Virus record (IMG/VR): IMGVR_UViG_3300032050_000032
DNA from: an uncultured virus (IMG/VR IMGVR_UViG_3300032050_000032)
Taxonomy: Duplodnaviria > Heunggongvirae > Uroviricota > Caudoviricetes
Reading direction: 5' to 3' (one strand)
DNA length: 54,716 nucleotides
Both the position numbers and the translations under genes were made by a program. Below the pieces are notes generated by a model. It was not told the DNA's origin, ran no database searches, and was given only the letters and a program-made list of their open reading frames with translations. Below, piece by piece: positions 13,844 to 28,669 of the stretch (the first letter of the stretch is position 1; every line of letters begins with the position of its first letter).

Positions 13844-13914
13844 ATCTTTTCCGTTTTGATTTATACAAAGATATGCTTTAGTTTTGAATTGCCAAAACTT
13901 TTTTAAAAAAAATG

Positions 13915-13988
13915 TGGTCCTTGTTGGGATCGAACCAACCACCTATTGATTATGAGTCAATTGCTCTAACCGAATGAGCTAAAGGACC
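13915..13988 (-). tRNA. tRNA-Ile2(CAT) (lysidine type; Met not excluded)
   Basis: Cloverleaf GGTCCTT/AAGGACC-A, loop CTCATAA, ileX-like body. Confidence 0.85.
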
Positions 13989-13993
13989 TTATG

Positions 13994-14094
13994 TAGTCAG
14001 GACAGGATTTGAACCTGTATGATTTAGTTTCTCTATCTGTAATGCACTTAGAATACACAAAACATCTTAGCGTCTACCATTCCGCCACCTGACT
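13994..14094 (-). ncRNA. Non-canonical tRNA-like RNA A (AGTCAGG/CCTGACT family)
   Basis: Leu-like D arm and canonical T arm, expanded centre. Confidence 0.65.
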
Positions 14095-14284
14095 ATTTTT
14101 TCATTTCTTCTAACATTCTATCTAACTCTTCACCATACTTTTTTGACTTCTCTAATCGTTCTTCAGATTGTTTAATTAACTCATGATAATCAACTGAGGG
14201 TTTTGACTTAAATTGGTTTAATAGTCCCACTAAAACTAAACAACCAAGCAAACATCCAATAATCGAAAATAATATTAATTCCAT
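14093..14284 (-). CDS. Small membrane protein
   Basis: 63 aa, N-terminal TM. Confidence 0.65.
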   Translation of the reverse strand: MELILFSIIGCLLGCLVLVGLLNQFKSKPSVDYHELIKQSEERLEKSKKYGEELDRMLEEMKK

Positions 14285-14302
14285 AATTTTTATTTTTTTT
14301 TG

Positions 14303-14398
14303 TAGTCAGGACAGGAGTCGAACCTGTTGCGATACTCAATCGTTAGGCATCCACCTTGGGGTCTCTTAAGTAGATTGTCCCAATTTCGCCGCCTGACT
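14303..14398 (-). ncRNA. Non-canonical tRNA-like RNA B
   Basis: Same acceptor stem and ACAGG-TTCGACT-CCTGT T arm, unrelated centre. Confidence 0.6.
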
Positions 14399-14403
14399 AT
14401 TTT

Positions 14404-14498
14404 GAGGATGAGAAGTCCTCTGTGTTGTGATTCATGCTAGGTTAAATCCAAATCAAGACAATCTCCCACCGCAATTCCTTTCTCAAGGGAACAACACA
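14404..14498 (-). ncRNA. Small structured RNA with a possible loop-loop pseudoknot
   Basis: TGTGTTGT/ACAACACA closing stem; TGAGAA loop complementary to the TTCTCA loop of the 3' hairpin. Confidence 0.45.
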
Positions 14499-14505
14499 AT
14501 ACATA

Positions 14506-14673
14506 TTATTTCAGTACCATATATTTGACACCATCAACGATCTTGGTAATATACTTACCACTATCACCTGACTTTTTGGTTGCCCGTTTAGTACTTCTAC
14601 TTGTCTTCACATTTTTCTCAGTTTCCCCAAACTTCTGCTCAAGGATAACTCTCATTGAATATCTCTCTTTCAT
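14506..14673 (-). CDS. Small basic hypothetical protein (55 aa)
   Basis: Translated by hand: MKERYSMRVILEQKFG...YMVLK. Confidence 0.6.
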   Translation of the reverse strand: MKERYSMRVILEQKFGETEKNVKTSRSTKRATKKSGDSGKYITKIVDGVKYMVLK

Positions 14674-14682
14674 AAGACAAAT

Positions 14683-14886
14683 TTAATCATTTTTTTCTTT
14701 CTTCCAGTATAATTCGTTAAAAATTTGTTTCCATTTGTTCCAAGCCGGAGATAATACCAAAACAAATCCAATGAATCCAATAAACATTGATGTCAATGTT
14801 ACCTCAGACATTAAATAAAAGGTGAAACAAAACAACCCAAAAAACATAACAACCGCAGTTGACAACATAGTGATAAACTCTCTCAT
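14683..14886 (-). CDS. Small two-TM membrane protein
   Basis: 67-aa hydrophobic ORF. Confidence 0.65.
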   Translation of the reverse strand: MREFITMLSTAVVMFFGLFCFTFYLMSEVTLTSMFIGFIGFVLVLSPAWNKWKQIFNELYWKKEKND

Positions 14887-14907
14887 GATATTAATTTAAA
14901 ATTTTAG

Positions 14908-15000
14908 TAGTCAGGAGAGGAATCGAACCTCTCTACAGGGTGCTACCCGACATCCATATCCTTCCATCGGACTCGAACCGACCTTGTATCCAACCTGACT
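14908..15000 (-). ncRNA. Non-canonical tRNA-like RNA C (two T-loop hairpins)
   Basis: AGTCAGG/CCTGACT stem; GTCGG-TTCGAGT-CCGAT and AGAGG-TTCGATT-CCTCT hairpins. Confidence 0.6.
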
Positions 15001-15074
15001 ATAAAAAAGGTTCTGAATCATCCCTCCACTAATCAAGGAGAACCTTTTAATTTCATAGTATTAGTGTTATAGTA

Positions 15075-15452
15075 TCCCACACCGATACGACTAAGATTCG
15101 TTAGCCCATAGTAACCATCCACGGTGGGTCTCTTGTACTTTGGTCCGTCTGTCATCATACCCATCCACCTCACGGCTTCAACACAGATACTCTTTTCACC
15201 ATTTCCTCAGAACATCTTCCCATACCCCCAAAGTTACATGGTGAGTCTCACTCGGAAGCCAGAGTGTGTATTGTAAGATTGTTCAGTGTTCTCACAACTT
15301 GTGGATTACGACACGACTAATTAAAGCCCCTTACCCTCTAAATCCATAATGAGGAATCCTTACCTAACCTGTGTAGCCTCCCCCATAGCCTTGAAGCCTT
15401 CAAGTCAGGTTCACACACCATAACAGACGGATATTTCTGTTAATCGTGGGGT
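15075..15452 (-). ncRNA. Unassigned ~380-nt structured RNA
   Basis: No credible ORF; nested long-range helices 15420-15431 with 15144-15155 (12 bp), 15391-15398 with 15174-15181 (8 bp), 15443-15450 with 15076-15086. Confidence 0.55.
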
Positions 15453-15458
15453 CTTTTG

Positions 15459-15530
15459 TAGTCCCGCCGGGAGTCGAACCCAGATCTGGAGATTAGAAGT
15501 CACCCGTTCTATCCATTGAACTACGGAACC
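15459..15530 (-). tRNA. tRNA-Arg(TCT)
   Basis: Cloverleaf, loop CTTCTAA. Confidence 0.9.
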
Positions 15531-15544
15531 ATATTTAATTTTAG

Positions 15545-15617
15545 CGGAGATTACGGGAGTCGAACCCGCTCCGAACGCCGTGACAGGGCGACATCTTAAC
15601 CATTTGACCTAATCTCC
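15545..15617 (-). tRNA. tRNA-Asp(GTC)
   Basis: Cloverleaf, loop CTGTCAC. Confidence 0.92.
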
Positions 15618-15676
15618 TTAAACACACTTTAAAACCGTAGAGGTACAACTTGTGTGCTGTGTTGTTCTTTTCATTG

Positions 15677-15748
15677 TCACCCATACGGGATTCGAACCCG
15701 TGACTTCACCGTGAAAGGGTGATGGCTTAACCACTTGCCGAATGGGCG
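15677..15748 (-). tRNA. tRNA-Glu(TTC)
   Basis: Cloverleaf, loop CTTTCAC. Confidence 0.92.
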
Positions 15749-15754
15749 AAATTG

Positions 15755-15824
15755 TGGACACTGTGGGAATCGAACCCAAACGATGTGGTTGCAAACCACT
15801 CGACCTGCCGTCGGCATCAGGCCC
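15755..15824 (-). tRNA. tRNA-Ala(TGC), atypical
   Basis: Loop TTTGCAA, G3:U70, bulged acceptor stem, reduced D arm. Confidence 0.7.
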
Positions 15825-15828
15825 AACT

Positions 15829-15905
15829 TGGAGCGGGTGGTGGGACTCAAACCCACAACCCTCGCCTTGGAAGGGCGATGCTCTAATCAATTGAGCTACA
15901 CCCGC
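15829..15905 (-). tRNA. tRNA-Gly(TCC)
   Basis: Cloverleaf with encoded CCA, loop CTTCCAA. Confidence 0.93.
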
Positions 15906-16121
15906 AGTTGTGATGACCTTTGGGGTTAGTCACCACTTTTACATGAATGAGGGGATCAATCCTACTAACATCATGAGTATAAGTTTATCACATTAAACTA
16001 TTACCATAAAACGCCAGTGTTTTACGCCAAAACTGAAAAAACGACTTGACCCCTTGTAACCCCTCTTTTAAGTGCGTGTTACTATCATTTCTCAAGTTGA
16101 ACTCTACTGTATACACTCCCG

Positions 16122-16195
16122 TACCGAAGAAGGGATTTGAACCCATAACCTTGACGATATAAGCGTCCTGCTCTCACCTGTTGAGCTACCTCGGC
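16122..16195 (-). tRNA. tRNA-Ile(TAT)
   Basis: Cloverleaf, anticodon arm GACG-CTTATAT-CGTC. Confidence 0.85.
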
Positions 16196-16341
16196 ATAAA
16201 TTGTCAGTCTTTCCTGACCGTCACCCCTAACCCACAGGTATTACCCGTATCGTAGTAAAGCTTGGTTTGCTTATAAAGATGAACACGGGCTCAGCGTGCC
16301 GTCTTTCAGGAAGAGCCCTTCCATCTATTCATCCTTATTAG

Positions 16342-16414
16342 TTGCGGGAGCCGGACTCGAACCGACGATCTCAGCTTATGAGACTGAGCGGATAACCATC
16401 TTCCACATCCCACT
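16342..16414 (-). tRNA. tRNA-Met(CAT), initiator-like 1:72 mismatch
   Basis: Loop CTCATAA, A1/A72 mismatch, lacks the three G-C anticodon-stem pairs. Confidence 0.8.
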
Positions 16415-16420
16415 ATGTTG

Positions 16421-16512
16421 TAGATAAGAAAGGATTTGAACCTTTAACGCCGTTTTTAACTCGGCATCTCCCCCAAATTGGGGATAGCGTCTACCTATTC
16501 CGCCACTCACCT
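16421..16512 (-). ncRNA. Non-canonical tRNA-like RNA D (Leu-like body, aberrant anticodon arm)
   Basis: AGGTGAG/CTTATCT acceptor, TGGCGGAATAGGTAGACGC D arm, T arm; anticodon loop lacks U33. Confidence 0.6.
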
Positions 16513-16517
16513 ATTTT

Positions 16518-16750
16518 TGTGATTCATAGTTAACACACACTCTCGTTTCACCATCTTATGTTAACAGGTTAATGCACTTTACGAGTTTCCCGTTTCTTAT
16601 GTCACAATATCGTTGATAGTGTTGGGATACCCATCTCGTCCCAATCTTAACTGCTTAATCGTAGTTTTACGAGGCCTCGGCAGGGGGTGATGAATTCCGA
16701 TTCCACTCTGGATTGTCGACATCCGTTGAGTGGGGAAAACCACTATCAAT
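16518..16750 (-). ncRNA. Two tandem structured RNA elements
   Basis: TTGATAGTG/CACTATCAA closes a multi-hairpin domain; TTGTGA/TCACAA closes a second; directly after a promoter and boxA. Confidence 0.45.
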
Positions 16751-16885
16751 ATTTTTATTTCAAAGAACCTTTTCCTTTTCTCACGGGAGTAGGACACTCA
16801 TCTCTAACTTTCCTACCCCCGTTGTTTGTTCTACAAAGATATGTAATCATTTTTAATCTACCAAATCTTTTTTTTGTTTTTTTTG

Positions 16886-16969
16886 TACTCGGAGCGGGAG
16901 TCGAACCCGCACGGGCAAATGCCCACAGGATTTTAAGTCCGGCGTGTCTACCTGTTCCACCATCCGAGC
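16886..16969 (-). tRNA. tRNA-Leu(TAA)
   Basis: Class II cloverleaf, loop CTTAAAA. Confidence 0.93.
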
Positions 16970-17056
16970 AAAAATTTACCAATATGTCAAAGAACCTCTT
17001 CTTGTTTGTTTTACAAAGATATGTATAATTTTTCACATACACAACACCCTGAAAAC

Positions 17057-17086
17057 AAAAATCCCACCTCTTTTGGAGATGGGATT
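17057..17086 (-). terminator. Attenuator terminator of tRNA array 1
   Basis: AATCCCATCTC-CAAAA-GAGGTGGGATT-TTT; its 5' arm is complementary to the leader sequence TGGAGATGG (17116-17124). Confidence 0.8.
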
Positions 17087-17110
17087 CAAATTTTATTATA
17101 TAATAATTTA

Positions 17111-17185
17111 TCACACCATCTCCATACAGAAAGTATCCTCAGCTATCGCCAATCCTCTTAAAGATATGATATGTAAATTTTTCAT
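17111..17185 (-). CDS. Leader peptide 1 (MKNLHIISLRGLAIAEDTFCMEMV), putative tRNA-sensing attenuator
   Basis: 24-codon ORF translated by hand; codons match array-1 tRNAs; last codons carry the antiterminator strand. Confidence 0.75.
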   Translation of the reverse strand: MKNLHIISLRGLAIAEDTFCMEMV

Positions 17186-17245
17186 TTGCGTTTTTATTTG
17201 TTTTGTTATAAATATATGATACTTTTCAAAAGTGTCAAGTTTTAT

Positions 17246-17566: not shown

Positions 17567-17588
17567 ATTTTTTCTTTTATTTATTTAT

Positions 17589-17939: not shown

Positions 17940-17951
17940 AAGTTTTGTTTT

Positions 17952-18476: not shown

Positions 18477-18492
18477 AGGTTTTGTTTTTTAT

Positions 18493-18792: not shown

Positions 18793-18802
18793 ATTTTTTT
18801 AT

Positions 18803-19177
18803 TTAAAATAAAGATTCATCTGATATGTACGAATCATTTGATCCATATTCCTCATCCCATTGATTTAACAATTTTTTTGCCATTCTTCTAACCATTCTTT
18901 CATCCATATTTGATGTGATTGATGGACCATATCCATAAATTTCTGGATTACCGTTATTATCAAGAAGATAAACAACAATTACATCTTTTTCATTTTCTTC
19001 ATCAGGAAACATTGTTGCAACACCTGCCTTTAATCCCGATTCCGATTCAATCCCTTCAATGTCCTTAATCTCACCAAAATCACTAATTGTACCCAATTCG
19101 GCAATTTCACCTTCGGTGATTATGTTTCTAATCAAGTTAACTAATTCTGATTCGGTTAGTCTTATTACTTTTTTCAT
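18803..19177 (-). CDS. LTE-leader family protein
   Basis: MKKVIRLTESELVNLIRNIITE. Confidence 0.85.
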   Translation of the reverse strand: MKKVIRLTESELVNLIRNIITEGEIAELGTISDFGEIKDIEGIESESGLKAGVATMFPDEENEKDVIVVYLLDNNGNPEIYGYGPSITSNMDERMVRRMAKKLLNQWDEEYGSNDSYISDESLF

Positions 19178-19188
19178 ATTAATAAATA

Positions 19189-21021: not shown

Positions 21022-21084
21022 AAATATAAATATAAATATGTATGAAACAAAAAAAACACCCGTTAGGGTGCTTTTTAAAATAGA

Positions 21085-21149
21085 TTAGTACAAGGACTCG
21101 AACCTGTTATTCTCCCATTGAGTGGGTGCGTTCTCCTACACGCTCACTA
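21085..21149 (-). pseudogene. Degenerate tRNA-like remnant
   Basis: CAGG-TTCGAGT-CCT T arm retained; acceptor stem poorly paired. Confidence 0.35.
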
Positions 21150-21155
21150 TATCCA

Positions 21156-21425
21156 TTATTTTACCTCAATAATTGTGTAGGTACCTTCCATTACACCCCA
21201 AGAAGATGATTCGTGGAATGTATACACCTGACAAGAATCTTGTGGTGTCATCGGACGAGTCAAATACCAAATCTGACTTTCCTTCCAAGTTACATTTATC
21301 AACTTTTGTCCCCTTGGTAATGTGAGAGTTCCATCCCCACCCCAATTCTTTACTCGGTTATTTTCAGTACAAGAAGACACTCCAAATAGGGATACTAATC
21401 CCAAAATAAACAACACTTTTTTCAT
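21156..21425 (-). CDS. Small lipoprotein
   Basis: Signal peptide ending in lipobox VSSC. Confidence 0.75.
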   Translation of the reverse strand: MKKVLFILGLVSLFGVSSCTENNRVKNWGGDGTLTLPRGQKLINVTWKESQIWYLTRPMTPQDSCQVYTFHESSSWGVMEGTYTIIEVK

Positions 21426-21443
21426 ATAATTTAATTAATTTTT

Positions 21444-21728
21444 TTACAATTCCTGAACTTGTTTCATAATATTAGTTACTTCTCCAGAAGAAAGATATCC
21501 CATAACATCATTTGTAATTGGTGTATTATAAGTCAAGTCCCACTCATTTTCATCACCAAAGATAACCGCAAGTTCCCATTGGTTATTATTGTTTGTATAT
21601 GATCCGTATCGTCCATTGATTTTAAACCTAACAACAGATACTCCATATCCATTAGGGAAAAATATCAACCCGTGAAGTCCATCACCAACTGGATGAGATT
21701 TAAAATCTATATCATTAAATGTTTTCAT
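21444..21728 (-). CDS. Hypothetical phage protein
   Basis: F.NGYGVSV ... V.GYL pattern common in phage ORFs. Confidence 0.75.
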   Translation of the reverse strand: MKTFNDIDFKSHPVGDGLHGLIFFPNGYGVSVVRFKINGRYGSYTNNNNQWELAVIFGDENEWDLTYNTPITNDVMGYLSSGEVTNIMKQVQEL

Positions 21729-21920
21729 AATCAATTAAATAAAAGTTTTTTGTGTTTTGTTTTTCTAGTATAAAGATTCTTAGGTGTTTCAACTCTTGAT
21801 ACAAATCTCCCATCAAAGAAACCTGCCTCAATCTGATCCTTTCTTACCTGTGTTCTTTTTGTCTTATGTTGATCATATGCTTTCATCTCATTTGTTTTTT
21901 ACAAAGATATAAAAATTTAT

Positions 21921-22163
21921 TTACCACTTTCTTTTTTTATCAAGTTTTTTTGATTTTTGTTCTTCCATCATATTGGCATACTCTATTTTGGTGAGTCGTT
22001 TAAATGAATCATCATCAACACCCCCGAATCTTTTTTTCGCGCTTGATTTTGCTTGGATGAGGTTTTTACCCCATACAATGTTCGATCCCACCACTTCATT
22101 GTTTTTAACCATATTAAAAACATATAAGAACTCCCCTTCTTTGTTCGTCATCAACTTTTCCAT
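21921..22163 (-). CDS. Hypothetical protein
   Basis: Start moved to MEKLMT; the longer call overlaps tRNA-Leu. Confidence 0.6.
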   Translation of the reverse strand: MEKLMTNKEGEFLYVFNMVKNNEVVGSNIVWGKNLIQAKSSAKKRFGGVDDDSFKRLTKIEYANMMEEQKSKKLDKKRKW

Positions 22164-22181
22164 TTTTTTATTTTTTGTTTG

Positions 22182-22262
22182 TACCCCCGGAGAGACTCGA
22201 ACTCTCACACCACTTGGCATCAGATCCTAAATCTGACGTGTCTACCATTCCACCACGGAGGC
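22182..22262 (-). tRNA. tRNA-Leu(TAG)
   Basis: Class II cloverleaf, loop TTTAGGA. Confidence 0.93.
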
Positions 22263-22270
22263 ATTTATTG

Positions 22271-22343
22271 AGCTCAGGGAGGGATTCGAACCCCCGTACC
22301 AAGGTTTTGCAGACCTGGGCCTAAACCACTCGACCACCTGAGC
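22271..22343 (-). tRNA. tRNA-Cys(GCA)
   Basis: Loop CTGCAAA, U73. Confidence 0.92.
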
Positions 22344-22345
22344 AA

Positions 22346-22801
22346 TTAACGACAGTGGTGATCTGCCGCTCTTGTTGCAATTTGATTATCGGGTTTAATA
22401 TTTGATTTATACCCTAATGATGTTGCCCACCCAACAACTGGTTGAACCAATTTTGAACTAAAGTATTTTTCTTCACTATTGTAGTCCAAATCAATTTCAA
22501 CTTGTACCTTCACCTTTTGAGTTAACCATTCAGCAACTTCAATTGAATAATCGGCTTCATTCCATAACCTTGTCCATTTGTCTTTAATCTTTTTTACCTT
22601 TTGTTTATGTAGGATATAGTGGACACCTCTATTTCCGTATCTGTACGCAATTACAGTAACATAAACGGTACTTCTTCTGTGATTCTGAGAGTCAGTTCCT
22701 ATGTGTATCTCAACCCAAGGACATTCTTTTAAAATGTTTAAGGTGTGGTTTACCACATCAGGAATCGCCTCACCATTAACTGTTCTAAATACTCTATTCA
22801 T
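22346..22801 (-). CDS. RNase H-like YkuK/DUF458 family protein
   Basis: IGTDSQ, RL.NEA..S, E.D.D.N, A..AAD motifs. Confidence 0.8.
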   Translation of the reverse strand: MNRVFRTVNGEAIPDVVNHTLNILKECPWVEIHIGTDSQNHRRSTVYVTVIAYRYGNRGVHYILHKQKVKKIKDKWTRLWNEADYSIEVAEWLTQKVKVQVEIDLDYNSEEKYFSSKLVQPVVGWATSLGYKSNIKPDNQIATRAADHHCR

Positions 22802-22817
22802 TATTTCTATTTATTTG

Positions 22818-22890
22818 TGGACAGAGAGGGTTTCGAACCCCCGACGCTCGGCTCTTCAGGCCGACGCTCTACCAACTGAGCTACCTGTCC
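22818..22890 (-). tRNA. tRNA-Phe(GAA)
   Basis: Loop CTGAAGA. Confidence 0.93.
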
Positions 22891-23324
22891 TCATTAATAT
22901 TTTTTAATTTACAACCTTCAAAATAATGTAGTTCCCTATGACAATTAGAACATAATGGTATACATTTTCTGATTTCTTCTTTTATTTTAGTTAATGAAAA
23001 CCCTGATTTTATCATTTTTGAAATTTCATATTGTTTATCTTTTGTGTGATGAAAATCAATGACATACCATCTATTGTCTCCACAATTCAAACACTTTAAA
23101 AATTTTTTATATTTTTTAATAAATTCTTTATTAAATTTAATCTGTTCATTTGACCTAGTTCTAATTTTTTTTTGCCTATCGGGGTTAGTTTTATAATTTT
23201 CCTTATCTATTTCTGAAATACAAACTTTACACTTACTCCTCTTTTTATTTAGTTTTTTATTTTTCCAACTAAACTCCTCAATATTTTTAATTAAACCACA
23301 TCCTGTACATTTTCTATTTTCCAT
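22881..23324 (-). CDS. HNH endonuclease with N-terminal Zn finger, inside the tRNA array
   Basis: CxxC...CxxC, CxxC..DFHH...LCSNCHRELH; stop codon lies inside tRNA-Phe. Confidence 0.8.
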   Translation of the reverse strand: MENRKCTGCGLIKNIEEFSWKNKKLNKKRSKCKVCISEIDKENYKTNPDRQKKIRTRSNEQIKFNKEFIKKYKKFLKCLNCGDNRWYVIDFHHTKDKQYEISKMIKSGFSLTKIKEEIRKCIPLCSNCHRELHYFEGCKLKNINEDR

Positions 23325-23393
23325 AATAATTCTTTTTATATAAATATCATTAAAAATAAAAAAGGACTGAAAGTACCAAAAATTTTTCGGTTC

Positions 23394-23894
23394 TTATTTA
23401 ATTTCAAACGCCGCCCTCATAGGTCGTTTGATTTTTACCGCATCTTCATAGTTACCAATCACAACACCATCTTTAATTGTAAATGCGTGTCCTTTAACTA
23501 ATACGAAGAATGTACCTTTAGGGTTTTTCTTTACAAATGTACCAACAGTCATTTGTCTTTTAACTTGTTCACCTTTCACTTTTACATCATATGAAAGTGA
23601 ATATGGATAAGCAAAACTACTACACTTTGTCCCAATAGGTGTAATCTTCTTACTGTTAACTTTAATTAAACTCTCAGATAGTTTAACCATTTTAGATGCA
23701 GTAAAATATGTACCCTTTCTTGGTTTTCTTTTAAACTCTTCCGCAACATACTTATGGGCATAATCATAAGAAACATCAAATGCCGAAGCAAACGCCCTAA
23801 CAACACAATCGTTTGTTTCGGTTCTTGCAGTTGCAGAATCAGTATAACCTTTAATCGCTTTTCCTGTAGATTCGTATGGTAATTTGTTTTTCAT
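23394..23894 (-). CDS. Hypothetical phage protein (NDCVVRA...H motif)
   Basis: Conserved-looking Cys/His pair; own TATCTTTA promoter-like site. Confidence 0.7.
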   Translation of the reverse strand: MKNKLPYESTGKAIKGYTDSATARTETNDCVVRAFASAFDVSYDYAHKYVAEEFKRKPRKGTYFTASKMVKLSESLIKVNSKKITPIGTKCSSFAYPYSLSYDVKVKGEQVKRQMTVGTFVKKNPKGTFFVLVKGHAFTIKDGVVIGNYEDAVKIKRPMRAAFEIK

Positions 23895-23938
23895 ACTGTA
23901 AAGATACAAAAAGTTTTTTAATTGGCAAAATTAAAAAT

Positions 23939-24012
23939 TGGCACACAGTGTAGGGATCGAACCTACCCGGCGAGGTTTTGGAGACCTGCCCGACACCCTG
24001 TCTGTACTGTGT
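23939..24012 (-). tRNA. tRNA-Trp(CCA), short D arm
   Basis: Loop CTCCAAA, G73 and encoded CCA. Confidence 0.85.
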
Positions 24013-24018
24013 ATGTTG

Positions 24019-24091
24019 TACCCTCGGAGAGATTCAAACTCCCATCTCACGATCCGTAGTCGTGTGTTCTGTTCGATTGAACTACAAAGGC
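24019..24091 (-). tRNA. tRNA-Arg(ACG)
   Basis: Loop CTACGGA. Confidence 0.9.
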
Positions 24092-24225
24092 ATAATAGTT
24101 TTGGTCAACCACTCGCATCCCACCGATTTCTTGAATCAAACTTTTTGTAGTCCAAACGATTATTAATCTCCTACGACTCATTCTCAACTCACTCGCCTAA
24201 GCCTTGTCCGTTGTAAACTATTTTG

Positions 24226-24299
24226 TGTGTATGATGGGTTACGATCCCATTACCTTCGGTTCCACAAACCGACGCTCTCCCGATTGAGCTACATACACC
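24226..24299 (-). tRNA. tRNA-His(GTG)
   Basis: Loop TTGTGGA, G-1 present, A rather than C at position 73. Confidence 0.88.
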
Positions 24300-24306
24300 A
24301 TATAAG

Positions 24307-24374
24307 TCCCGTATGTTGGACTTGAACCAACCTAAAGTCGGATATGAGCCAACTTTGATCCCTGATCATACGGG
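24307..24374 (-). tRNA. tRNA-Met(CAT), truncated D arm
   Basis: CCCGTAT/ATACGGG acceptor, GTTGG-CTCATAT-CCGAC, 68 nt. Confidence 0.7.
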
Positions 24375-24380
24375 TTGTTG

Positions 24381-24464
24381 CGGAAGACATTGGAATCGAA
24401 CCAAATACCCGAAGGTACATCTCGCTTAGCAGGCGGACCCTATCGCCATCAAGGTTTATCTTCC
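24381..24464 (-). tRNA. tRNA-Ser(GCT)
   Basis: Class II, loop CTGCTAA. Confidence 0.88.
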
Positions 24465-24468
24465 GTAG

Positions 24469-24541
24469 TGCTCATCACCGGTTACGATCCGATTCTCTCC
24501 ACGATATCAGCGTGGTGCTTTCCCAATTAAGCTAGATGAGC
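24469..24541 (-). tRNA. tRNA-Ile(GAT)
   Basis: Loop CTGATAT. Confidence 0.9.
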
Positions 24542-24706
24542 TGGTGCGTATTTAGGGGTATTTATTAACCACCCCCTCAGCTCGCCAGCATCTCGGTGGT
24601 TGATACTTTAGTCGTGGGGAACCCACCTTCCACTTCTTACTAGATTCTTGTGGTCTACTTACTATAGTTCATACCGTTACCACTGGGGAACCCAACATTG
24701 TATCTT

Positions 24707-24782
24707 TGGCGGACAAGGTAGGGTACGATCCTACAACCTATCGGTTAACAGCCGATTGCTCTACCAATTGAGCTACTTGTCC
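24707..24782 (-). tRNA. tRNA-Asn(GTT)
   Basis: Loop CTGTTAA, encoded CCA. Confidence 0.93.
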
Positions 24783-24790
24783 ATTTGTTG

Positions 24791-24873
24791 TGGGAGAGGA
24801 GGGACTCGAACCCCCAAGGTCTTACGACGACAGATTTACAGTCTGCTGAGCCAACCAATTGCTCAACTCTCCC
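24791..24873 (-). tRNA. tRNA-Tyr(GTA)
   Basis: Class II, loop CTGTAAA. Confidence 0.93.
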
Positions 24874-24878
24874 TTTTG

Positions 24879-24952
24879 TACACCCTACAGGGATCGAACC
24901 TGTGACCTGTTGTATGTAAAACAACCGCTACTACCATCTGAGCTAAAGGTGT
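24879..24952 (-). tRNA. tRNA-Val(TAC)
   Basis: Loop TTTACAT. Confidence 0.9.
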
Positions 24953-25028
24953 GTGTTTAGAGAATTTTAATCTTTATATCATTGGCGTATGCACCATCGC
25001 CCTATTTGATTATTATTCTCTAAATCTG

Positions 25029-25103
25029 TGATCCCGGTGAGGCTCGAACTCACGACCCCTCCATTAAAAGTGGAGTGCTCTAAACCAACTGAGCTACGAG
25101 ATC
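25029..25103 (-). tRNA. tRNA-Lys(TTT)
   Basis: Loop CTTTTAA. Confidence 0.93.
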
Positions 25104-25121
25104 TTCTGTTTGTCGTACTTG

Positions 25122-25310
25122 TCACTTTCCATAGGACATTAATTTTTGATTGTTTAGGTTTATTTCTGTTTCTACTCTTTTTAGTTCTTCACTTAAATCC
25201 CCACGGTAGGATGGATCTTTACTAATCTTAACAAGACTAAGATAATAATGGTTTAAACCACTCAACTTACCTTTAATTGCAATTATTTCACATTCTTCGT
25301 TTGTTACCAT
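25122..25310 (-). CDS. Small hypothetical protein inside the tRNA array
   Basis: 62-aa ORF filling the gap between tRNA-Pro and tRNA-Lys. Confidence 0.6.
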   Translation of the reverse strand: MVTNEECEIIAIKGKLSGLNHYYLSLVKISKDPSYRGDLSEELKRVETEINLNNQKLMSYGK

Positions 25311-25325
25311 TTTTTAAAGTTTTAG

Positions 25326-25398
25326 TAGGGTAGACCGGACTCGAACCGACATCGTCCACATCCCAAATGTGGTGACTTACCAATTAGTCAACTACCCT
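25326..25398 (-). tRNA. tRNA-Pro(TGG)
   Basis: Loop TTTGGGA. Confidence 0.9.
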
Positions 25399-25404
25399 AT
25401 ATTG

Positions 25405-25488
25405 AGGAAGAGTGAGGTGTCGATCCCCATACCTTTCGGTACCTGCCGTTTTCAAGACGGAGTCACAAGCCGTTGTGATTACCCTTCC
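25405..25488 (-). tRNA. tRNA-Ser(TGA)
   Basis: Class II, loop CTTGAAA. Confidence 0.88.
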
Positions 25489-25492
25489 ATTG

Positions 25493-25564
25493 TTGTTCCC
25501 CAAGGGTTCGAACCTCGATTCCATGGACCAAAACCATGTGTCCTGCCGATTAGACGAGGGAACA
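25493..25564 (-). tRNA. tRNA-Gln(TTG)
   Basis: Loop TTTTGGT, U1-A72. Confidence 0.92.
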
Positions 25565-25606
25565 TTAATGAAGCCAATATGTCAAAGAACTCTTTCTTTT
25601 TGTTTG

Positions 25607-25678
25607 AGGTTTCTATCAGGTTCGAACTGATGACTCTGGGTTACAAATCCAGGGTATTACCAACTATACTAAGAAACC
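25607..25678 (-). tRNA. tRNA-Thr(TGT)
   Basis: Loop TTTGTAA. Confidence 0.88.
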
Positions 25679-25692
25679 AAATTTTTGGATAT

Positions 25693-25722
25693 AAAAAAAC
25701 CCTAACTGTTTTGAGTTAGGGT
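25693..25722 (-). terminator. Attenuator terminator of tRNA array 2
   Basis: ACCCTAACT-CAAAAC-AGTTAGGGT-TTTTTT, about 15 nt before tRNA-Thr. Confidence 0.85.
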
Positions 25723-25757
25723 CTTATATTCCTTTTTATGTTTTATGTTAATATCTA

Positions 25758-25865
25758 TCAACTCATAAACGAAAATGCCCTAATATCCGACTTCAGCGTA
25801 CGATACACGAACGACCACTGATTGCTCGGGATACAAATGTTCATATGTTTATTAGTTGTTTTCAT
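25758..25865 (-). CDS. Leader peptide 2 (MKTTNKHMNICIPSNQWSFVYRTLKSDIRAFSFMS), putative tRNA-sensing attenuator
   Basis: 35-codon ORF translated by hand; contains a codon for each of the 17 downstream tRNAs; its 3' end pairs with the terminator 5' arm. Confidence 0.8.
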   Translation of the reverse strand: MKTTNKHMNICIPSNQWSFVYRTLKSDIRAFSFMS

Positions 25866-25870
25866 TTTGT

Positions 25871-25945
25871 TATAAATATAGTGTTTTTACTAAAAGTTCA
25901 AATTTCTTGTACAAAGATAGGTACTTTTTTTAATTTGACAAGTGT
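25871..25945 (-). promoter_or_regulatory. Promoter region of array 2 (TATTTATA motif and TATCTTTG)
   Basis: Minus-strand TATTTATA at 25871-25878; TATCTTTG at about 25912-25919. Confidence 0.55.
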
Positions 25946-26033
25946 TTCATTGTTTTTTTATATATGAAAATATTTATTATAGTATATAATTTAAGATGAT
26001 GGTTATATAATTGTAAAAATTAAAAAAATTTAG

Positions 26034-26987
26034 ATGAGTAAAAAATTCATAATAACGGAAAACGAAAAAAACCACATAAAAAAATTATATGGTATTATAA
26101 CTGAACAGACTAATCAATTCTGTACTAAATTTAATGAATCAACAAAAACTAATGTTGTAGATTATGACGAGATTATATCATCATATAAAACAAAATTAAA
26201 AACGGAAAATTTGAATGTTGTTTTTTCAGGTATAAACAATGACATTCAGTCCTTTGCCTCAAACCTAATTTCAAAGGGAATTGCAGAACGACCTTCTTGT
26301 CAAATGGGACTTATAAATATAAGACCAGGATTTAAAGATAAAAATATAATAATTGTGGATTCAAGACAACATACAATTTATTTATTTGATAAAACATTAA
26401 ACGATGTAACACCTTACCAAAATCCTGAGAAAAAATCCCCAATACCAATAATAACAGGTAGAGAAAAACAATCAACTGAAGAAAATTGGAAGGAATTTAA
26501 TCTTTTAAATTTTGAGGAACGAAGATCTTATATTGCAAAAACAAAAAATAAAAATATTAGCGATGTTTCAGATAATGAAGTTTTTGAATTTAGTGGTGGC
26601 GCGTCTTTAAACCCTGGTATTTACACAACCAATAAATTAAACGACATAACCACATATTTAAAAACTTTGGATGGTAAAAGGTTATCTCAAGCAATTCACA
26701 AGGTATTGGATGTTGCCGAAAGAAAAAACGCATTGATTAAATCCTCAGATAGAACAATTTCTGATTTGGACGATGAAACTAAAAATAAAGAACTAATGAT
26801 GTCATCAGGATGTATAAACATACCTGAATGGTTAACAAATAATTCAAAATATCAAGAGATTGCCAATGATGCCTATGTCTTTAATATTTCAGATGAGACT
26901 GAAAATTATTATGTCAAGGTTGAAAATATCCCATTAGACGATAAATGTTATTCACCAAAATCTGTTGGTGCTGAGTCAATTGCTTGA
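26034..26987 (+). CDS. ITE-leader protein with L,D-transpeptidase (YkuD)-like domain
   Basis: IIVD...IYLF strand, AIH and S.GCIN catalytic-type motif. Confidence 0.55.
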   Translation: MSKKFIITENEKNHIKKLYGIITEQTNQFCTKFNESTKTNVVDYDEIISSYKTKLKTENLNVVFSGINNDIQSFASNLISKGIAERPSCQMGLINIRPGFKDKNIIIVDSRQHTIYLFDKTLNDVTPYQNPEKKSPIPIITGREKQSTEENWKEFNLLNFEERRSYIAKTKNKNISDVSDNEVFEFSGGASLNPGIYTTNKLNDITTYLKTLDGKRLSQAIHKVLDVAERKNALIKSSDRTISDLDDETKNKELMMSSGCINIPEWLTNNSKYQEIANDAYVFNISDETENYYVKVENIPLDDKCYSPKSVGAESIA

Positions 26988-27027
26988 TTTTTTTGTATGT
27001 GGGGATATTTATTATTAAACTCAAATT

Positions 27028-27807
27028 ATGAACAAAAGAATTTTAATTTCTGAAGAAGAAAAACAAAGAATATTGGGTATGCACAAAGCATTATCTTTAA
27101 AACCAATTCTTGAACAATATAGTAAAGATAAAGATGTATTAAATTCTAAAGGTCAATACATTACGCAAGGTGAAGTTACTTTTAGAGGACAACAAATTGG
27201 ACAAGAAGGTGGTAAAGGAGTATCTGAAACAATAAAATCAGGAACATTAGTTTGGGGTGACGAAAGGTTTAATGGAATTGTATTTTGGCTTGAAAAACCA
27301 TCAAGTACAAAATATTACAAACTATTAACCATAAATTGTAACTCCAATAAAGTGATTGGTAAGTTTAAAGCGGATGATGGTAGTTGGATTGATGAAGACG
27401 AATTTTCATACTCTGATCCAGTTGATTTTATACCAAAAATGAAATCAATGTTTTGTTGTGGAACAAAATTAAAACCTGATACTAAAAGACCCGGAAGTGT
27501 CGCTTGGGCTAAACCTGGTGAAGATGGTTATAAGTGTGAAGGTACACAAGTAAAAAAATGTCCAAGTGGGATTGAGGCTTGTAGTGGATATAAAGATTGT
27601 ACCCGATCAACACATTATCATAAGTGTGATAAATGTGAAAAAATAAAAGAATTACAAAGATGTCTTGCTAAAAAATTCCCAAATGCGGGTATTAAAGATG
27701 ACGGATATTGGGGTTGTAAAACACAAGACGCACTTAATAAATTAAATATGGGTAAGACTGTAACACCTGAACAGATCGAAATGTTGTGTACTACAACACT
27801 CGGATAA
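27028..27807 (+). CDS. ISE-leader protein with C-terminal peptidoglycan-binding domain
   Basis: IKELQ.CL...DGYWG..T..AL. Confidence 0.6.
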   Translation: MNKRILISEEEKQRILGMHKALSLKPILEQYSKDKDVLNSKGQYITQGEVTFRGQQIGQEGGKGVSETIKSGTLVWGDERFNGIVFWLEKPSSTKYYKLLTINCNSNKVIGKFKADDGSWIDEDEFSYSDPVDFIPKMKSMFCCGTKLKPDTKRPGSVAWAKPGEDGYKCEGTQVKKCPSGIEACSGYKDCTRSTHYHKCDKCEKIKELQRCLAKKFPNAGIKDDGYWGCKTQDALNKLNMGKTVTPEQIEMLCTTTLG

Positions 27808-27964
27808 TATTAATTTATTTTAGATATAACTTAAAAATACACCAATTAGTTGGTGTATTTTTTTTTATATAATTCTTCTTCTTCCTCTAATCTTTGTAGA
27901 AACACATAATATTCCTCAGAGTTAACAAATTCATTATGAATTAGTTCTAAAATATCTTCCATAA

Positions 27965-28669
27965 TTAGTTATACAACATTTTAATTACCTCTTTATCCAA
28001 TTCAGTATATTTTGTGGTTTCTGTCCATTCACCGTAAAATATACTTTCAGGGTATTTGTATGAATCATTTGTTAATCCAAGTGATTGGGTTAATTCTTCT
28101 CGTAATAAGTGTTTCTCTCCATTAGATCTTGAGGTTCTATCAATATCCACATACATAGATCCGTCAGTAATTTCTCCACCACTACTATTAATCACAAACA
28201 AACCGTAGTTATGTTCTGTATATCCAATTGATGTAGGACAAATTTGATTATACCCTTTTTGCCCACCAAAATAAACAATAAAATTACTTTCAGATTCTGA
28301 ATCAACAATCTCAATATTAATACCTGAAATCAAACCATTAAGTTCGGATACTACTTTATTAAGTTCATTCATTAAATAACCAACCTTGTTACCCTTAACA
28401 AAAATCTTCATATCCTTATACCATTTTTTGGGGGTATAATTTTTGTTATATTCGTTTTTGGTTACAATTTCAGAATAATAACTTTTAGACTCTTCAGAAT
28501 GTTCATCCTCAATGGATTCAACATTTGAAATGTCTCTCTTCGGTAATTCGGTGTTTTGAGTTTCGGATTTGTTTTCTGAATATTTTGTTTTTTCTTGTGA
28601 AGAACCTTCACAAACATAGAAAACAAAAAGAAGTGAGATAATTAAAAGTAGGAATTTAAAATTTTTCAT
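27965..28669 (-). CDS. Secreted DUF2927-like zincin-fold protein
   Basis: Signal peptide; LREELTQSLGL.ND motif. Confidence 0.65.
   Translation of the reverse strand: MKNFKFLLLIISLLFVFYVCEGSSQEKTKYSENKSETQNTELPKRDISNVESIEDEHSEESKSYYSEIVTKNEYNKNYTPKKWYKDMKIFVKGNKVGYLMNELNKVVSELNGLISGINIEIVDSESESNFIVYFGGQKGYNQICPTSIGYTEHNYGLFVINSSGGEITDGSMYVDIDRTSRSNGEKHLLREELTQSLGLTNDSYKYPESIFYGEWTETTKYTELDKEVIKMLYN

What the first reader, a model, noticed from the sequence alone, without database searches (positions are those of the whole stretch)
25693..25880. Codon-checklist attenuator: a 35-aa leader contains a codon for every tRNA in the downstream 17-tRNA array
Seen: a minus-strand ORF at 25865-25758, too short for the ORF track. 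Its core reads CAT ATG AAC ATT TGT ATC CCG AGC AAT CAG TGG TCG TTC GTG TAT CGT ACG CTG AAG TCG. These 20 codons cover all 17 tRNAs of the array below: His-GTG, Met-CAT, Asn-GTT, Ile-GAT, Cys-GCA, Pro-TGG, Ser-GCT, Gln-TTG, Trp-CCA, Ser-TGA, Phe-GAA, Val-TAC, Tyr-GTA, Arg-ACG, Thr-TGT, Leu-TAG, Lys-TTT. The match extends to the split-box isoacceptors (AGC and TCG Ser, CGT Arg, CTG Leu), and the first 26 codons contain none from the other array's specific set (Gly, Ala, Glu, Asp, TTA, AGA, ATA). Many codons end in G/C, which is unusual for this AT-rich genome. The last codons (GTTT-A-TGAGTTG) can form 11 bp with TAACTCAAAAC of the intrinsic terminator lying about 15 nt before tRNA-Thr. Established: this is the geometry of trp/his-type ribosome attenuators, and host anticodon nucleases (PrrC, PARIS AriB, retron PtuAB) deplete tRNAs during infection. 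Inference: a ribosome reaching the stop masks the antiterminator and transcription terminates, while stalling at any checklist codon allows read-through. The leader would then be a multi-input OR gate that turns on replacement tRNAs. I am not aware of this having been described for phage tRNA arrays.
Basis: partly seen in the sequence, partly recalled or inferred. Interest (0 to 1): 0.96.

Follow-up and report, generated by a model that had tools for sequence, protein, structure and literature searches.

The report
Codon-matched leader attenuators before phage tRNA arrays
In this large phage each of two blocks of tRNA genes sits behind a promoter, a tiny gene spelled in the codons those tRNAs read, and a switchable transcription stop, so the phage probably makes a tRNA block when ribosomes read its codons slowly.

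Summary
The 35-codon ORF at 25865-25758 (-) carries a cognate codon for all 17 tRNA species of the array that starts 17 nt after its terminator. Sixteen are tool-called; the 17th, a CAT-anticodon tRNA, is atypical.

One such ORF somewhere in the genome is near chance expectation. Its position and three further results are not:
- In 42 related viral loci the promoter-ORF-terminator unit is kept. The ORF stays open with 3-nt indels. The amino-acid sequence drifts, yet 25 of 26 distinct peptides keep all 16 array amino acids.
- A second leader (17185-17111) heads the other array and holds TTA, ATA, AGA, GGA, GCN, GAG, GAT and ATG, covering its 8 core tRNAs.
- A third leader in distant relatives covers 8 of 8 tRNAs of a differently composed array.

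In all three types the 3' part of the ORF pairs with the terminator's 5' arm, and the pairing covaries.

Best reading: ribosome-dependent transcription attenuators that sense tRNA supply. This is inferred; no usable expression data exist. Five literature searches found no published account. Earlier AI notes of this scan report the same idea on at least 8 other genomes. The link to anticodon nucleases is untested.

The parts
25912..25941 (-). Promoter of leader 1: TTG, 19-nt spacer, TATCTTTG. This matches the Bacteroidota -33/-7 type; that consensus is recalled, not from a call.
   Evidence: It is the only full TTG-N17-21-TAnnTTTG match on this strand inside or before array 1. The TAnnTTTG box and upstream TTG are kept in the aligned relatives.
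25865..25880 (-). A 16-mer shared by both leaders, ending at the A of the start codon.
   Evidence: With at most 1 mismatch it occurs only twice in the 304-kb genome, immediately before the two leader ORFs.
25758..25865 (-). Leader ORF 1: 35 codons plus TGA.
   Evidence: An ORF of 34-37 codons is kept in 30 of 33 unique homologous stretches. Two exceptions are cut by contig ends, and one (L056) lost the first ATG. Indels inside the ORF are 3 nt long.
25788..25847 (-). Codons 7-26, the 'checklist' core.
   Evidence: With the rest of the ORF it covers 17 of 17 array anticodons. 12 of 18 codons are G/C-ending against a genome GC3 of 0.18. It uses the phage's rare synonymous codons: CCG 7%, AGC 1%, TCG 6%, ACG 6%, CTG 1% of their families. 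CCG is kept in 24 of 25 and ACG in 25 of 25 distinct homologues.
25765..25783 (-). Antiterminator 5' strand (TTAGGG plus the T-rich run), inside codons 28-33.
   Evidence: When the RNA is folded without the terminator 3' arm, this segment pairs with the spacer and the terminator 5' arm (CCCTAA) in the window and in three other clades. The homologous pairing covaries: 67.2% of cells paired against 59.9% shuffled, covariation score 0.226 against 0.128, and 0 of 500 shuffles reach it.
25759..25770 (-).
   Evidence: It pairs with TAACTCAAAAC in the window (-8.5 kcal/mol). In close relatives the shorter ATGAGTTG/GAACTCAA pairing remains (-6.6). It is not the best pairing in the other clades.
25747..25762 (-). 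Small hairpin over the stop codon (6-bp stem, 4-nt loop).
   Evidence: Predicted in the folds of four clades. By eye in the alignment, stem changes are compensated between clades (TTAAT/ATTAA against TTAAA/TTTAA). Its role is unknown.
25696..25725 (-). Intrinsic terminator: 11-12-bp stem, 6-nt loop, T-run. It ends about 17 nt before tRNA-Thr.
   Evidence: It is the only consensus structure RNAalifold finds in 25 relatives: 11 pairs, 3 of them with compensatory changes.
22181..25678 (-). tRNA array 1: Thr-tgt, Gln-ttg, Ser-tga, Pro-tgg, Lys-ttt, Val-tac, Tyr-gta, Asn-gtt, Ile-gat, Ser-gct, (CAT), His-gtg, Arg-acg, Trp-cca, Phe-gaa, Cys-gca, Leu-tag. Small ORFs are interspersed.
   Evidence: The same gene order occurs in most of the 66 related loci.
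17209..17238 (-). Promoter of leader 2: TTG, 19-nt spacer, TATATTTA.
   Evidence: Read. It is conserved in the alignment, and its -7 box is the shared 16-mer.
17111..17185 (-). Leader ORF 2: 24 codons, MKNLHIISLRGLAIAEDTFCMEMV.
   Evidence: It holds TTA x2, TTG, ATA x2, AGA, GGA, GCG, GCT, GAG x2, GAT and ATG, which is 8 of 8 core tRNAs of array 2. An intact ORF of 22 or 24 codons is present in 27 of 27 unique relatives.
17116..17123 (-). Antiterminator 5' strand of leader 2 (GGAGATGG), in the last four codons.
   Evidence: It is the exact complement of the terminator 5' arm CCATCTCC. Own-pair duplexes are -9.2 to -12.1 kcal/mol in 27 of 27 unique sequences. Permuting arms among the 16 haplotypes gives p 1e-4. 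The fold without the 3' arm forms this helix.
17059..17087 (-). Intrinsic terminator of leader 2.
17014..17044 (-). Additional promoter-like site between terminator 2 and tRNA-Leu-taa. It could bypass the attenuator.
   Evidence: It is present in some relatives. In others the tRNA follows the terminator directly.
13914..16969 (-). tRNA array 2: Leu-taa, an odd tRNA, Met-cat, Ile-tat, Gly-tcc, Ala-tgc, Glu-ttc, Asp-gtc, Arg-tct, further weak calls, Met-cat.

Best explanation
These are ribosome-dependent transcription attenuators placed in front of phage tRNA arrays.

**Proposed mechanism.**
1. Each unit is a promoter, a 22-37-codon leader ORF, a short spacer and an intrinsic terminator, followed within about 17-120 nt by the first tRNA.
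2. The 3' part of the ORF is complementary to the terminator's 5' arm. It is transcribed first, so on naked or stalled-ribosome RNA it pairs with that arm (antiterminator), and RNA polymerase reads on into the tRNA genes.
3. A ribosome that translates the leader without delay runs through and over this segment while the terminator is being made. The terminator hairpin then forms and transcription stops.
4. The leader is written in codons read by the tRNAs of its own array, often the phage's rarest synonymous codons. Slow decoding of any of them, meaning a shortage of that charged tRNA, would turn the array on, and ample supply would turn it off. That is an OR-type feedback on tRNA supply.

**Shown here:**
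- the parts and their conservation;
- the codon match in three leader/array pairs;
- maintenance of the codon set;
- the pairing potential and its covariation.

**Inferred:**
- that the ORFs are translated;
- that ribosome position decides the fold;
- that read-through responds to tRNA levels;
- the physiological purpose.
For: 1. **Position.** The leader's promoter is the only full promoter motif before or inside array 1. The terminator ends about 17 nt before tRNA-Thr.
2. **Codon cover of the own array.**
   - Leader 1 covers 17 of 17. The null is 0 of 75,843 windows in long ORFs. In six frames it is 12 of 132,694, and 8 of those are the leader itself.
   - Leader 2 covers 8 of 8 (null 0.013 and 0.007).
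   - The L057-59 leader covers 8 of 8 of a differently composed array, Thr/Gly/Ser/Leu-tag/Leu-taa/Arg-tct/Met/Ile-tat (null 0.004).
   - The last two were found after the hypothesis was stated.
   - Cross-pairings score lower: leader 1 on array 2 gives 5 of 8, and leader 2 on array 1 gives 8 of 17.
3. **Opposite codon classes.** Array-2-class codons make up 3 of 32 non-ATG codons in leader 1 and 12 of 21 in leader 2, against a genome share of 0.35 (Fisher p 3e-4).
4. **Conservation.**
   - 42 of 66 related loci hold a leader-1 homologue.
   - The ORF is kept in 30 of 33 unique stretches, with 3-nt indels.
   - Variable sites by codon position are 25/26/26 of 40. This is not the pattern of a protein under purifying selection.
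   - All 25 distinct peptides tested keep all 16 array amino acids. Column shuffles lose 0.66 on average, and 0 of 5000 reach the observed value.
   - Cys, Val, Arg and Gln sit at different positions in different clades.
5. **Rare codons kept at the third position.** CCG is kept in 24 of 25, ACG in 25 of 25 and CAG in 19 of 25. RNAalifold finds no conserved structure in the ORF body.
6. **Antiterminator.**. Leader C's ORF end GGATCCAG pairs with the 5' arm CTGGATCC (-14.8 kcal/mol).
7. **Over all loci.** Leaders cover 553 of 595 (strict) or 581 of 595 (family-box wobble) anticodon species of their own arrays for type 1, and 259 of 292 for type 2.
8. **Arg isoacceptor.** With Arg-tct in array 1, the leader core has an AGR codon in 14 of 15 distinct types. 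Without it, 2 of 12 do (Fisher p 8e-5).
Against: - There is no expression, ribosome or 3'-end data. The runs found hold only contigs with small shares.
- Each tRNA is represented by one or two codons, not by the tandem runs of classical attenuators, so sensitivity may be low.
- Relatives whose arrays have lost many tRNAs keep almost the same leader (L003/L004 and L015/L017).
- The Arg-tct/AGR association rests on few independent events: 2-3 pairs go the same way, 0 the opposite way and 2-3 show no difference (sign test p 0.25).
- Leader 2 also holds 9 codons of array-1 type.
- In the window, array 2 has further promoter-like sites downstream of the attenuator, at 17044, 16864 and 13895. The attenuator can therefore gate at most part of its expression.
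- The leader-1 antiterminator is imperfect: 67% of cells are paired, with a usual internal mismatch. Its G-C core lies 18-20 nt before the ORF end, so a ribosome parked on the stop codon would mask it only partly.
- L055 pairs a leader-2 ORF of one type with a terminator of the other type, giving one mismatch.
- Some arrays in related phages have a promoter and a structured RNA but no leader ORF.
- tRNA calls at -ps90 include weak ones.
Confidence: 0.72

Rival explanations
1. A translation-coupled attenuator that senses general translation capacity (any ribosome slowdown, or uncoupling of ribosome and polymerase) and not the supply of particular tRNAs. On this view the codon match is a by-product.
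For: - The architecture and the antiterminator covariation fit this reading equally well.
- Single codons per tRNA are weak specific sensors.
- Leader 2 holds 9 codons of the other array's type.
- Leaders stay unchanged where arrays lost tRNAs.
Against: - Three leader types each cover all tRNAs of their own, differently composed array.
- Leader 1 avoids and leader 2 favours array-2 codons.
- The full 16-amino-acid set is maintained by relocation of residues.
- Rare codons are kept at third positions.
Confidence: 0.13
2. An independent small gene (a micro-protein or a small RNA) with its own promoter and terminator that happens to lie before the arrays. The tRNAs would be made by leaky read-through or from unrecognised promoters.
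For: - The unit has a complete promoter and a strong terminator.
- The N-terminal MKT..H and C-terminal AFSFMS stretches are fairly conserved.
- RNA-library contigs of relatives touch the leader, though this is uninformative.
Against: - There is no third-position excess of variation, and most residues are free to change.
- No Pfam or PHROG family matches at E up to 1.
- The ORF's 3' end covaries with the terminator arm.
- Three unrelated peptide sequences stand in the same position with array-matched codons.
- No other full promoter motif is found for array 1.
Confidence: 0.1
3. A chance ORF in an AT-rich spacer. The codon 'checklist' would be a post-hoc pattern.
For: - About one 20-codon window with this exact amino-acid set is expected per genome.
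- One unrelated place in the genome also reaches 17 of 17.
Against: - The ORF is conserved across clades with in-frame indels.
- The codon set is maintained.
- Two further leaders fitted the prediction.
Confidence: 0.03

Closest known systems
Multivalent leader-peptide transcription attenuators of enterobacterial amino-acid operons (thr leader with Thr+Ile codons, ilvGMEDA leader with Ile/Leu/Val codons; also trpL, hisL, leuL, pheL). Recalled textbook knowledge; I saw pheL only as a search listing, PMC3082878.
   Same: - A promoter-proximal short ORF comes first.
- Its regulatory codons match the controlled pathway.
- An intrinsic terminator stands before the controlled genes.
- An antiterminator competes for the terminator's 5' arm and overlaps the ORF.
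- Rare codons may serve as sensitive sensors. This is recalled for the CUA codons of the leu leader.
   Different: - The controlled genes are tRNA genes, not biosynthetic enzymes.
- There are 8-17 inputs with one or two codons each instead of tandem runs of one to three amino acids.
- No conserved region-1 anti-antiterminator was found. The 1:2 pairing in the window did not, by eye, appear conserved in the L053 clade. Untranslated RNA would therefore read through.
- The elements are phage-borne, and the promoters look Bacteroidota-type.
Antibiotic-responsive leader-ORF attenuators (mef/mel, vmlR and erm-type leaders). Search listings only: PMC4335068, PMC9226507, PMC6851288.
   Same: A ribosome stalled on a short upstream ORF prevents formation of a terminator or sequestering hairpin and switches on downstream genes. 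A two-state design without region 1 is common among them.
   Different: In those systems the stall is caused by a drug and a specific nascent peptide. Here no conserved arrest peptide is evident, and codon content rather than peptide sequence is what is maintained.
T-box riboswitches
   Same: They sense the charging state of a tRNA and control a terminator/antiterminator choice.
   Different: A T-box binds uncharged tRNA directly through a specifier codon and the T-box sequence, and needs no translation. No T-box or other leader family of Rfam matches here at E up to 1. T-boxes control synthetase and amino-acid genes, one tRNA each.
Phage tRNA genes as counter-defence against tRNA-cleaving host systems (PMC10264068 and PMC11555353, term searches of the main text; PMC11464382, search listing)
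   Same: They offer a rationale for a phage to make replacement tRNAs when host tRNAs are lost.
   Different: The main texts of PMC10264068 and PMC11555353 hold neither 'attenuat' nor 'leader'. They describe the tRNAs, not a control element. No nuclease link was tested here.

Membership tests
Ribosome-dependent leader-peptide transcription attenuator | A short ORF lies directly downstream of a promoter and upstream of the regulated genes. | tested here: met
   The arrangement is conserved in relatives.
Ribosome-dependent leader-peptide transcription attenuator | An intrinsic terminator lies between the leader ORF and the regulated genes. | tested here: met
Ribosome-dependent leader-peptide transcription attenuator | An alternative antiterminator helix uses the terminator 5' arm and a segment within reach of the translating ribosome. 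| tested here: met
   Support is strong for leader 2 and for the L057 leader. It is moderate, with covariation, for leader 1.
Ribosome-dependent leader-peptide transcription attenuator | The leader is enriched in codons that report on the regulated product. | tested here: met
   The codons occur as single or double codons per tRNA, not as tandem runs.
Ribosome-dependent leader-peptide transcription attenuator | An upstream region 1 forms an anti-antiterminator or pause hairpin (trp-type four-region design). | tested here: inconclusive
   A 1:2 pairing appears in the window's minimum-energy fold. RNAalifold finds no conserved helix in the ORF body. By eye the pairing is lost in the L053 clade.
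Ribosome-dependent leader-peptide transcription attenuator | The leader is translated, and read-through responds to the supply of charged tRNA. | not testable with these tools
   Only contigs of public runs were available.
T-box riboswitch | A match to the T-box covariance model (specifier loop and T-box motif). | tested here: not met
   The Rfam scan of 12000-28000 at E up to 1 gives no T-box hit.
Known Rfam amino-acid leader families (His, Leu, Thr, Trp, Phe leaders) | A match to the family model at the leader loci. | tested here: not met
   The only hit is a Phe_leader match at 13059-13121, away from both leaders. It scores 27.2 bits against a gathering score of 55 (E 0.62).

The most novel reading that the evidence does not exclude
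Phage tRNA arrays are run by a multi-input sensor. Each array's leader ORF is a codon-by-codon test of the tRNAs the array encodes. The phage therefore restocks exactly the tRNA set that is running short, whether from its own codon demand, from host tRNA decay, or from attack by host anticodon nucleases. This control may also be widespread among unrelated large phages, as unchecked earlier notes of this scan on at least 8 other genomes suggest.
Probability: 0.35. Interest if true: 0.95.

Novelty: new variant of a known kind. Interest (0 to 1): 0.86.

Why it matters
- **tRNA gene control.** tRNA genes are usually thought to be controlled by promoter strength and growth-rate signals. A leader-peptide attenuator in front of them would close a direct feedback loop from decoding speed to tRNA synthesis.
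- **Attenuation logic.** It would extend a classical bacterial control logic to a new target and to 8-17 inputs at once.
- **Phage tRNA gene order.** It would explain why phage tRNA genes are sorted into blocks.
- **A testable question.** It would give a handle on the old question of what phage tRNAs are for: the condition that opens the attenuator is the condition the tRNAs answer. Candidates include amino-acid starvation, host tRNA loss and anticodon nucleases.
- **A possible tool.** The elements are small and modular, so they could serve as in-cell reporters of the availability of single tRNAs.

Tried and rejected
- **GenBank phage collection.** blastn of the leader region found only tRNA-level matches: 8 records, none covering the leader.
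- **Neighbouring 317-aa protein in viral contigs.** The search for related loci found no relative. The RNaseH-like ORF inside the array then gave 66 loci.
- **Public RNA runs.**
  - Fifteen runs hold part of the stretch and all are kept as contigs.
  - I laid four. Short contigs of relatives touch the leader in two RNA libraries, X8 at 25734-25808 and X10 at 25810-25898.
  - Contigs show no ends, strand or level, and DNA carry-over cannot be excluded. This is no evidence either way.
Rejected as the family-wide element.
- **The 1:2 pairing from the minimum-energy fold.** The pairing is codons 3-6 with the ORF end. RNAalifold does not recover it.
- **Phylogenetically independent contrasts for Arg-tct against AGR codons.** Underpowered.
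- **Other candidate leader.** An ORF before tRNA-Lys-ctt in L057-59 and L063 looks like the end of a longer coding region followed by that gene's terminator. I did not count it as a leader.
- **Peptide families.** Pfam and PHROGs give nothing for the three peptides.
- **Failed scripts.** One search stopped on an imperfect terminator stem and was redone.
Full report
**What is there.**
- The window is part of a 304-kb, 31% G+C single-contig virus genome.
- On the minus strand, 25941-25912 is a promoter-like site: TTG, a 19-nt spacer, then TATCTTTG. The Bacteroidota -33/-7 consensus I compare it with is recalled, not from a call.
- It is followed by the ORF 25865-25758, which reads MKTTNKHMNICIPSNQWSFVYRTLKSDIRAFSFMS.
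- A 33-nt spacer and a strong intrinsic terminator at 25725-25696 come next. About 17 nt later tRNA-Thr begins at 25678.
- The array that follows runs to 22181. It holds 14 tRNAs by ARAGORN default, and two Ser tRNAs at a laxer threshold.
- It also holds an atypical CAT-anticodon tRNA. No tool calls it in the window, but it is almost identical to one that ARAGORN calls Met-cat in relative L005.
- By strict wobble rules the ORF holds a cognate codon for all 17.

**Is it more than chance?**
- Taken alone, hardly. A 20-codon window with exactly this 16-amino-acid set has a probability of about 5e-6 under the genome's six-frame composition. Against 208,679 open windows, about one is expected per genome.
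- At codon level, 12 of 132,694 open 35-codon windows reach 17/17. Eight are the leader itself and four are one unrelated place near 54474-54590 (+).
- In long ORFs, 0 of 75,843 windows reach it.
- The chance that the particular ORF wedged between the array's only recognisable promoter and its first tRNA shows the pattern is therefore about 1e-4 or less. That figure is post hoc. The case rests on what follows.

**Relatives.**
- The RNaseH-like ORF inside the array (PF04308) retrieved 66 viral loci at 70-99% protein identity.
- Forty-two of them hold a homologue of the leader region at 70-90% DNA identity.
- The TTG and TAnnTTTG boxes, the ORF, the terminator and the abutting tRNA-Thr are all kept.
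- An ORF of 34-37 codons is present in 30 of 33 unique stretches. Two exceptions are cut by contig ends. In the third, L056, the first ATG is lost and a 28-codon ORF remains.
- Length differences inside the ORF are 3-nt indels.
- The peptide does not evolve like a protein. Variable sites fall 25/26/26 on codon positions 1/2/3, and most residues change between clades.

**What is kept is the set of amino acids.**
- All 25 distinct peptides examined hold all 16 amino acids of the array.
- Shuffling residues within alignment columns loses 0.66 amino acids per peptide on average. None of 5000 shuffles reaches zero.
- Cys, Val, Arg and Gln sit at different positions in different clades.
- Rows left out of that count:
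  - L004, which is cut.
  - L056 and L057, which head other array types.
  - L035/L036, which my terminator finder missed.
- The L036 peptide lacks Arg, and the arrays of L035/L036 show no Arg tRNA. Overall, 25 of 26 distinct peptides keep the full set.

**Two predictions that came true.**
- If the idea is right, the window's other array should have its own leader with the complementary codons. It does.
  - At 17185-17111 (-), behind a promoter whose -7 box is the same 16-mer that precedes leader 1, lies MKNLHIISLRGLAIAEDTFCMEMV. That 16-mer occurs only at these two places in the genome.
  - Its codons include TTA, TTG, ATA, AGA, GGA, GCG, GCT, GAG, GAT and ATG. They cover 8 of 8 core tRNAs of array 2: Leu-taa, Met, Ile-tat, Gly, Ala, Glu, Asp and Arg-tct. 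The null is 0.013 in long ORFs and 0.007 in six frames.
  - Array-2-class codons are 3 of 32 in leader 1 and 12 of 21 in leader 2, against a genome share of 0.35 (Fisher p 3e-4).
  - It is conserved as a 22- or 24-codon ORF in 27 of 27 unique relatives.
- The most distant loci (L057-59) carry a differently composed array: Thr-tgt, Gly-tcc, (Ser-tga), Leu-tag, Leu-taa, Arg-tct, Met and Ile-tat. Rfam confirms it.
  - That array is headed by an unrelated 28-codon ORF whose codons include ACA, TCA, AGG, TTA, GGT, ATA, AGA, CTA and GGA. It covers 8 of 8 (null 0.004).
- In L056, a degenerate leader-1 relative heads an array that holds Glu-ttc and Gln-ctg. It has gained GAG and keeps CAG, while Trp, His, Pro, Lys and Val are gone. 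Its cover is 4 of 5.

**The switch.**
- In leader 2 the last codons (GGAGATGG, 17123-17116) are the exact complement of the terminator's 5' arm.
  - Across 27 unique sequences the own-pair duplex is -9.2 to -12.1 kcal/mol.
  - The two sides change together: ATGG/CCAT, AGGG/CCCT and GAAG/CTTC.
  - Permuting arms among 16 haplotypes gives p 1e-4.
  - L055 is an exception, with one mismatch.
- The L057 leader ends in GGATCCAG against the arm CTGGATCC (-14.8 kcal/mol).
- In leader 1 the pairing shared by the clades uses the segment around codons 28-31 (TTAGGG in the window) and the terminator's 5' arm plus part of its loop.
  - Counted on 25 sequences, 67.2% of cells are paired against 59.9% in shuffles.
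  - The covariation score is 0.226 against 0.128, and 0 of 500 shuffles reach it.
  - All slid registers score lower.
- Folding each RNA up to, but not including, the terminator's 3' arm gives this antiterminator as the minimum-energy structure in all six cases tried.
It is not the best pairing elsewhere.

**Codon choice.**
- In the core of leader 1, 12 of 18 codons end in G or C, against a genome GC3 of 0.18 (p 8e-6).
- The leader uses the phage's rarest synonymous codons: CCG 7%, AGC 1%, TCG 6%, ACG 6% and CTG 1% of their families.
- These are kept at the third position in relatives (CCG 24 of 25, ACG 25 of 25), although RNAalifold sees no conserved structure in the ORF body.
- Slowly decoded codons would make sensitive sensors. 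This is an inference, by analogy with the rare Leu codons of the leu leader, which I recall rather than cite.

**Does the leader track the array within the family?** Partly.
- Over all loci the leaders cover 553 of 595 (strict) or 581 of 595 (family-box wobble) anticodon species of their own arrays for type 1, and 259 of 292 for type 2.
- Arrays that contain Arg-tct have an AGR codon in the leader core in 14 of 15 distinct types. Arrays without it have one in 2 of 12 (Fisher p 8e-5).
- On a tree, however, only 5 independent contrasts exist: 2-3 go the same way, 0 the opposite way and 2-3 show no difference (p 0.25).
- Relatives that lost many tRNAs (L003/L004, L015/L017) keep nearly the same leader.

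**Limits.**
- Nothing shows translation or regulated read-through. The public runs that hold related sequence are contigs and say nothing about ends or levels.
- One or two codons per tRNA is a weak sensor by classical standards.
- Leader 2 also holds 9 codons of the other class.
- In the window, array 2 has further promoter-like sites downstream of its attenuator.
- The G-C core of the leader-1 antiterminator lies 18-20 nt before the ORF end, so a terminating ribosome would mask it only partly.
- Some related arrays are headed by a promoter and a structured RNA without any leader ORF.
- The host is unknown.

**Comparison and novelty.**
- The logic is that of leader-peptide attenuators, closest to the multivalent thr and ilvGMEDA leaders. 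In its two-state form it also resembles the drug-responsive leader-ORF attenuators.
- It differs in three ways:
  - its target is tRNA genes;
  - it has 8-17 inputs;
  - what is conserved is codon content rather than peptide sequence.
- It is not a T-box and matches no Rfam leader family.
- Five full-text searches gave no account of leader-peptide attenuation of tRNA genes in phages or bacteria.
- Two recent papers on phage tRNAs hold neither 'attenuat' nor 'leader' in their main text.
- Subscription-only literature was not searchable.
- Earlier AI notes of this scan report the same idea on at least 8 other genomes. They are unchecked by me and are not independent evidence.

**Verdict.**
- The element is best described as a new variant of ribosome-dependent transcription attenuation that gates phage tRNA arrays.

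Noticed in passing
window 17111-17185 (-), with terminator 17059-17087: A second codon-matched leader ORF heads array 2. It is not part of the finding as given, but it is the strongest single support for it.
   Followed up: yes
L057:6146-6282 (also L058, L059): A third, unrelated leader ORF plus terminator stands before a differently composed tRNA array and covers 8 of 8 of its tRNAs.
   Followed up: yes
window 16520-16840 (-); also L030, L041, L042, L044, L052, L064 just upstream of tRNA-Phe: A conserved promoter is followed by a G-rich hairpin and a conserved, apparently structured stretch of about 100 nt containing GGGAAACTCGTAAAGTGCATTAACCTGTT. In several relatives this heads tRNA arrays in place of a leader ORF. 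No Rfam family matched it in the window scan.
   Followed up: no
window about 25575-25591, 16995-17011 and 16765-16773 (-), and many loci: The motif GTTCTTTGACATATTGG recurs just before tRNA genes and directly after the leader terminators. It may be a processing signal or part of an internal promoter.
   Followed up: no
window 13994-14094 (-): A tRNA-like gene has a CTA anticodon, so it may be an amber suppressor (Rfam tRNA 38.9 bits; ARAGORN -ps90 calls it 'Pyl cta'). A second weak call lies elsewhere in the genome. Long ORFs in the window read normally under table 11.
   Followed up: no
window 8049-8451 (+): A phage-borne tmRNA gene with tag peptide EKEQTLIIRG (ARAGORN).
   Followed up: no
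window 24541-24707 (-): A G+C-rich spacer of 166 nt lies between tRNA-Asn and tRNA-Ile. It looks structured, and neither ARAGORN nor Rfam calls it a tRNA.
   Followed up: no
L056:1536-1940 (+): A GOLLD RNA (Rfam RF02032, 311.6 bits) lies in a related phage contig a few kb from its tRNA arrays.
   Followed up: no
window 54474-54590 (+): This is the only other place in the genome where a 35-codon open window covers all 17 anticodons. It is antisense to a 71-aa ORF and has no tRNAs nearby, so I took it as the chance instance.
   Followed up: partly
window 16420-16512 and 14907-15000 (-): Two over-long tRNA-like genes (93-94 nt). One has an unreadable anticodon loop and the other is called Pro-tgg. 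They may carry introns or be degenerate.
   Followed up: no
window 22346-22801, 22881-23324, 23394-23909, 25122-25310 (-): Protein ORFs are interspersed in array 1. One is RNaseH-like (PF04308) and the other three, of 147, 171 and 62 aa, have no Pfam match. They would be co-transcribed with the tRNAs if the leader's promoter is the only one.
   Followed up: partly
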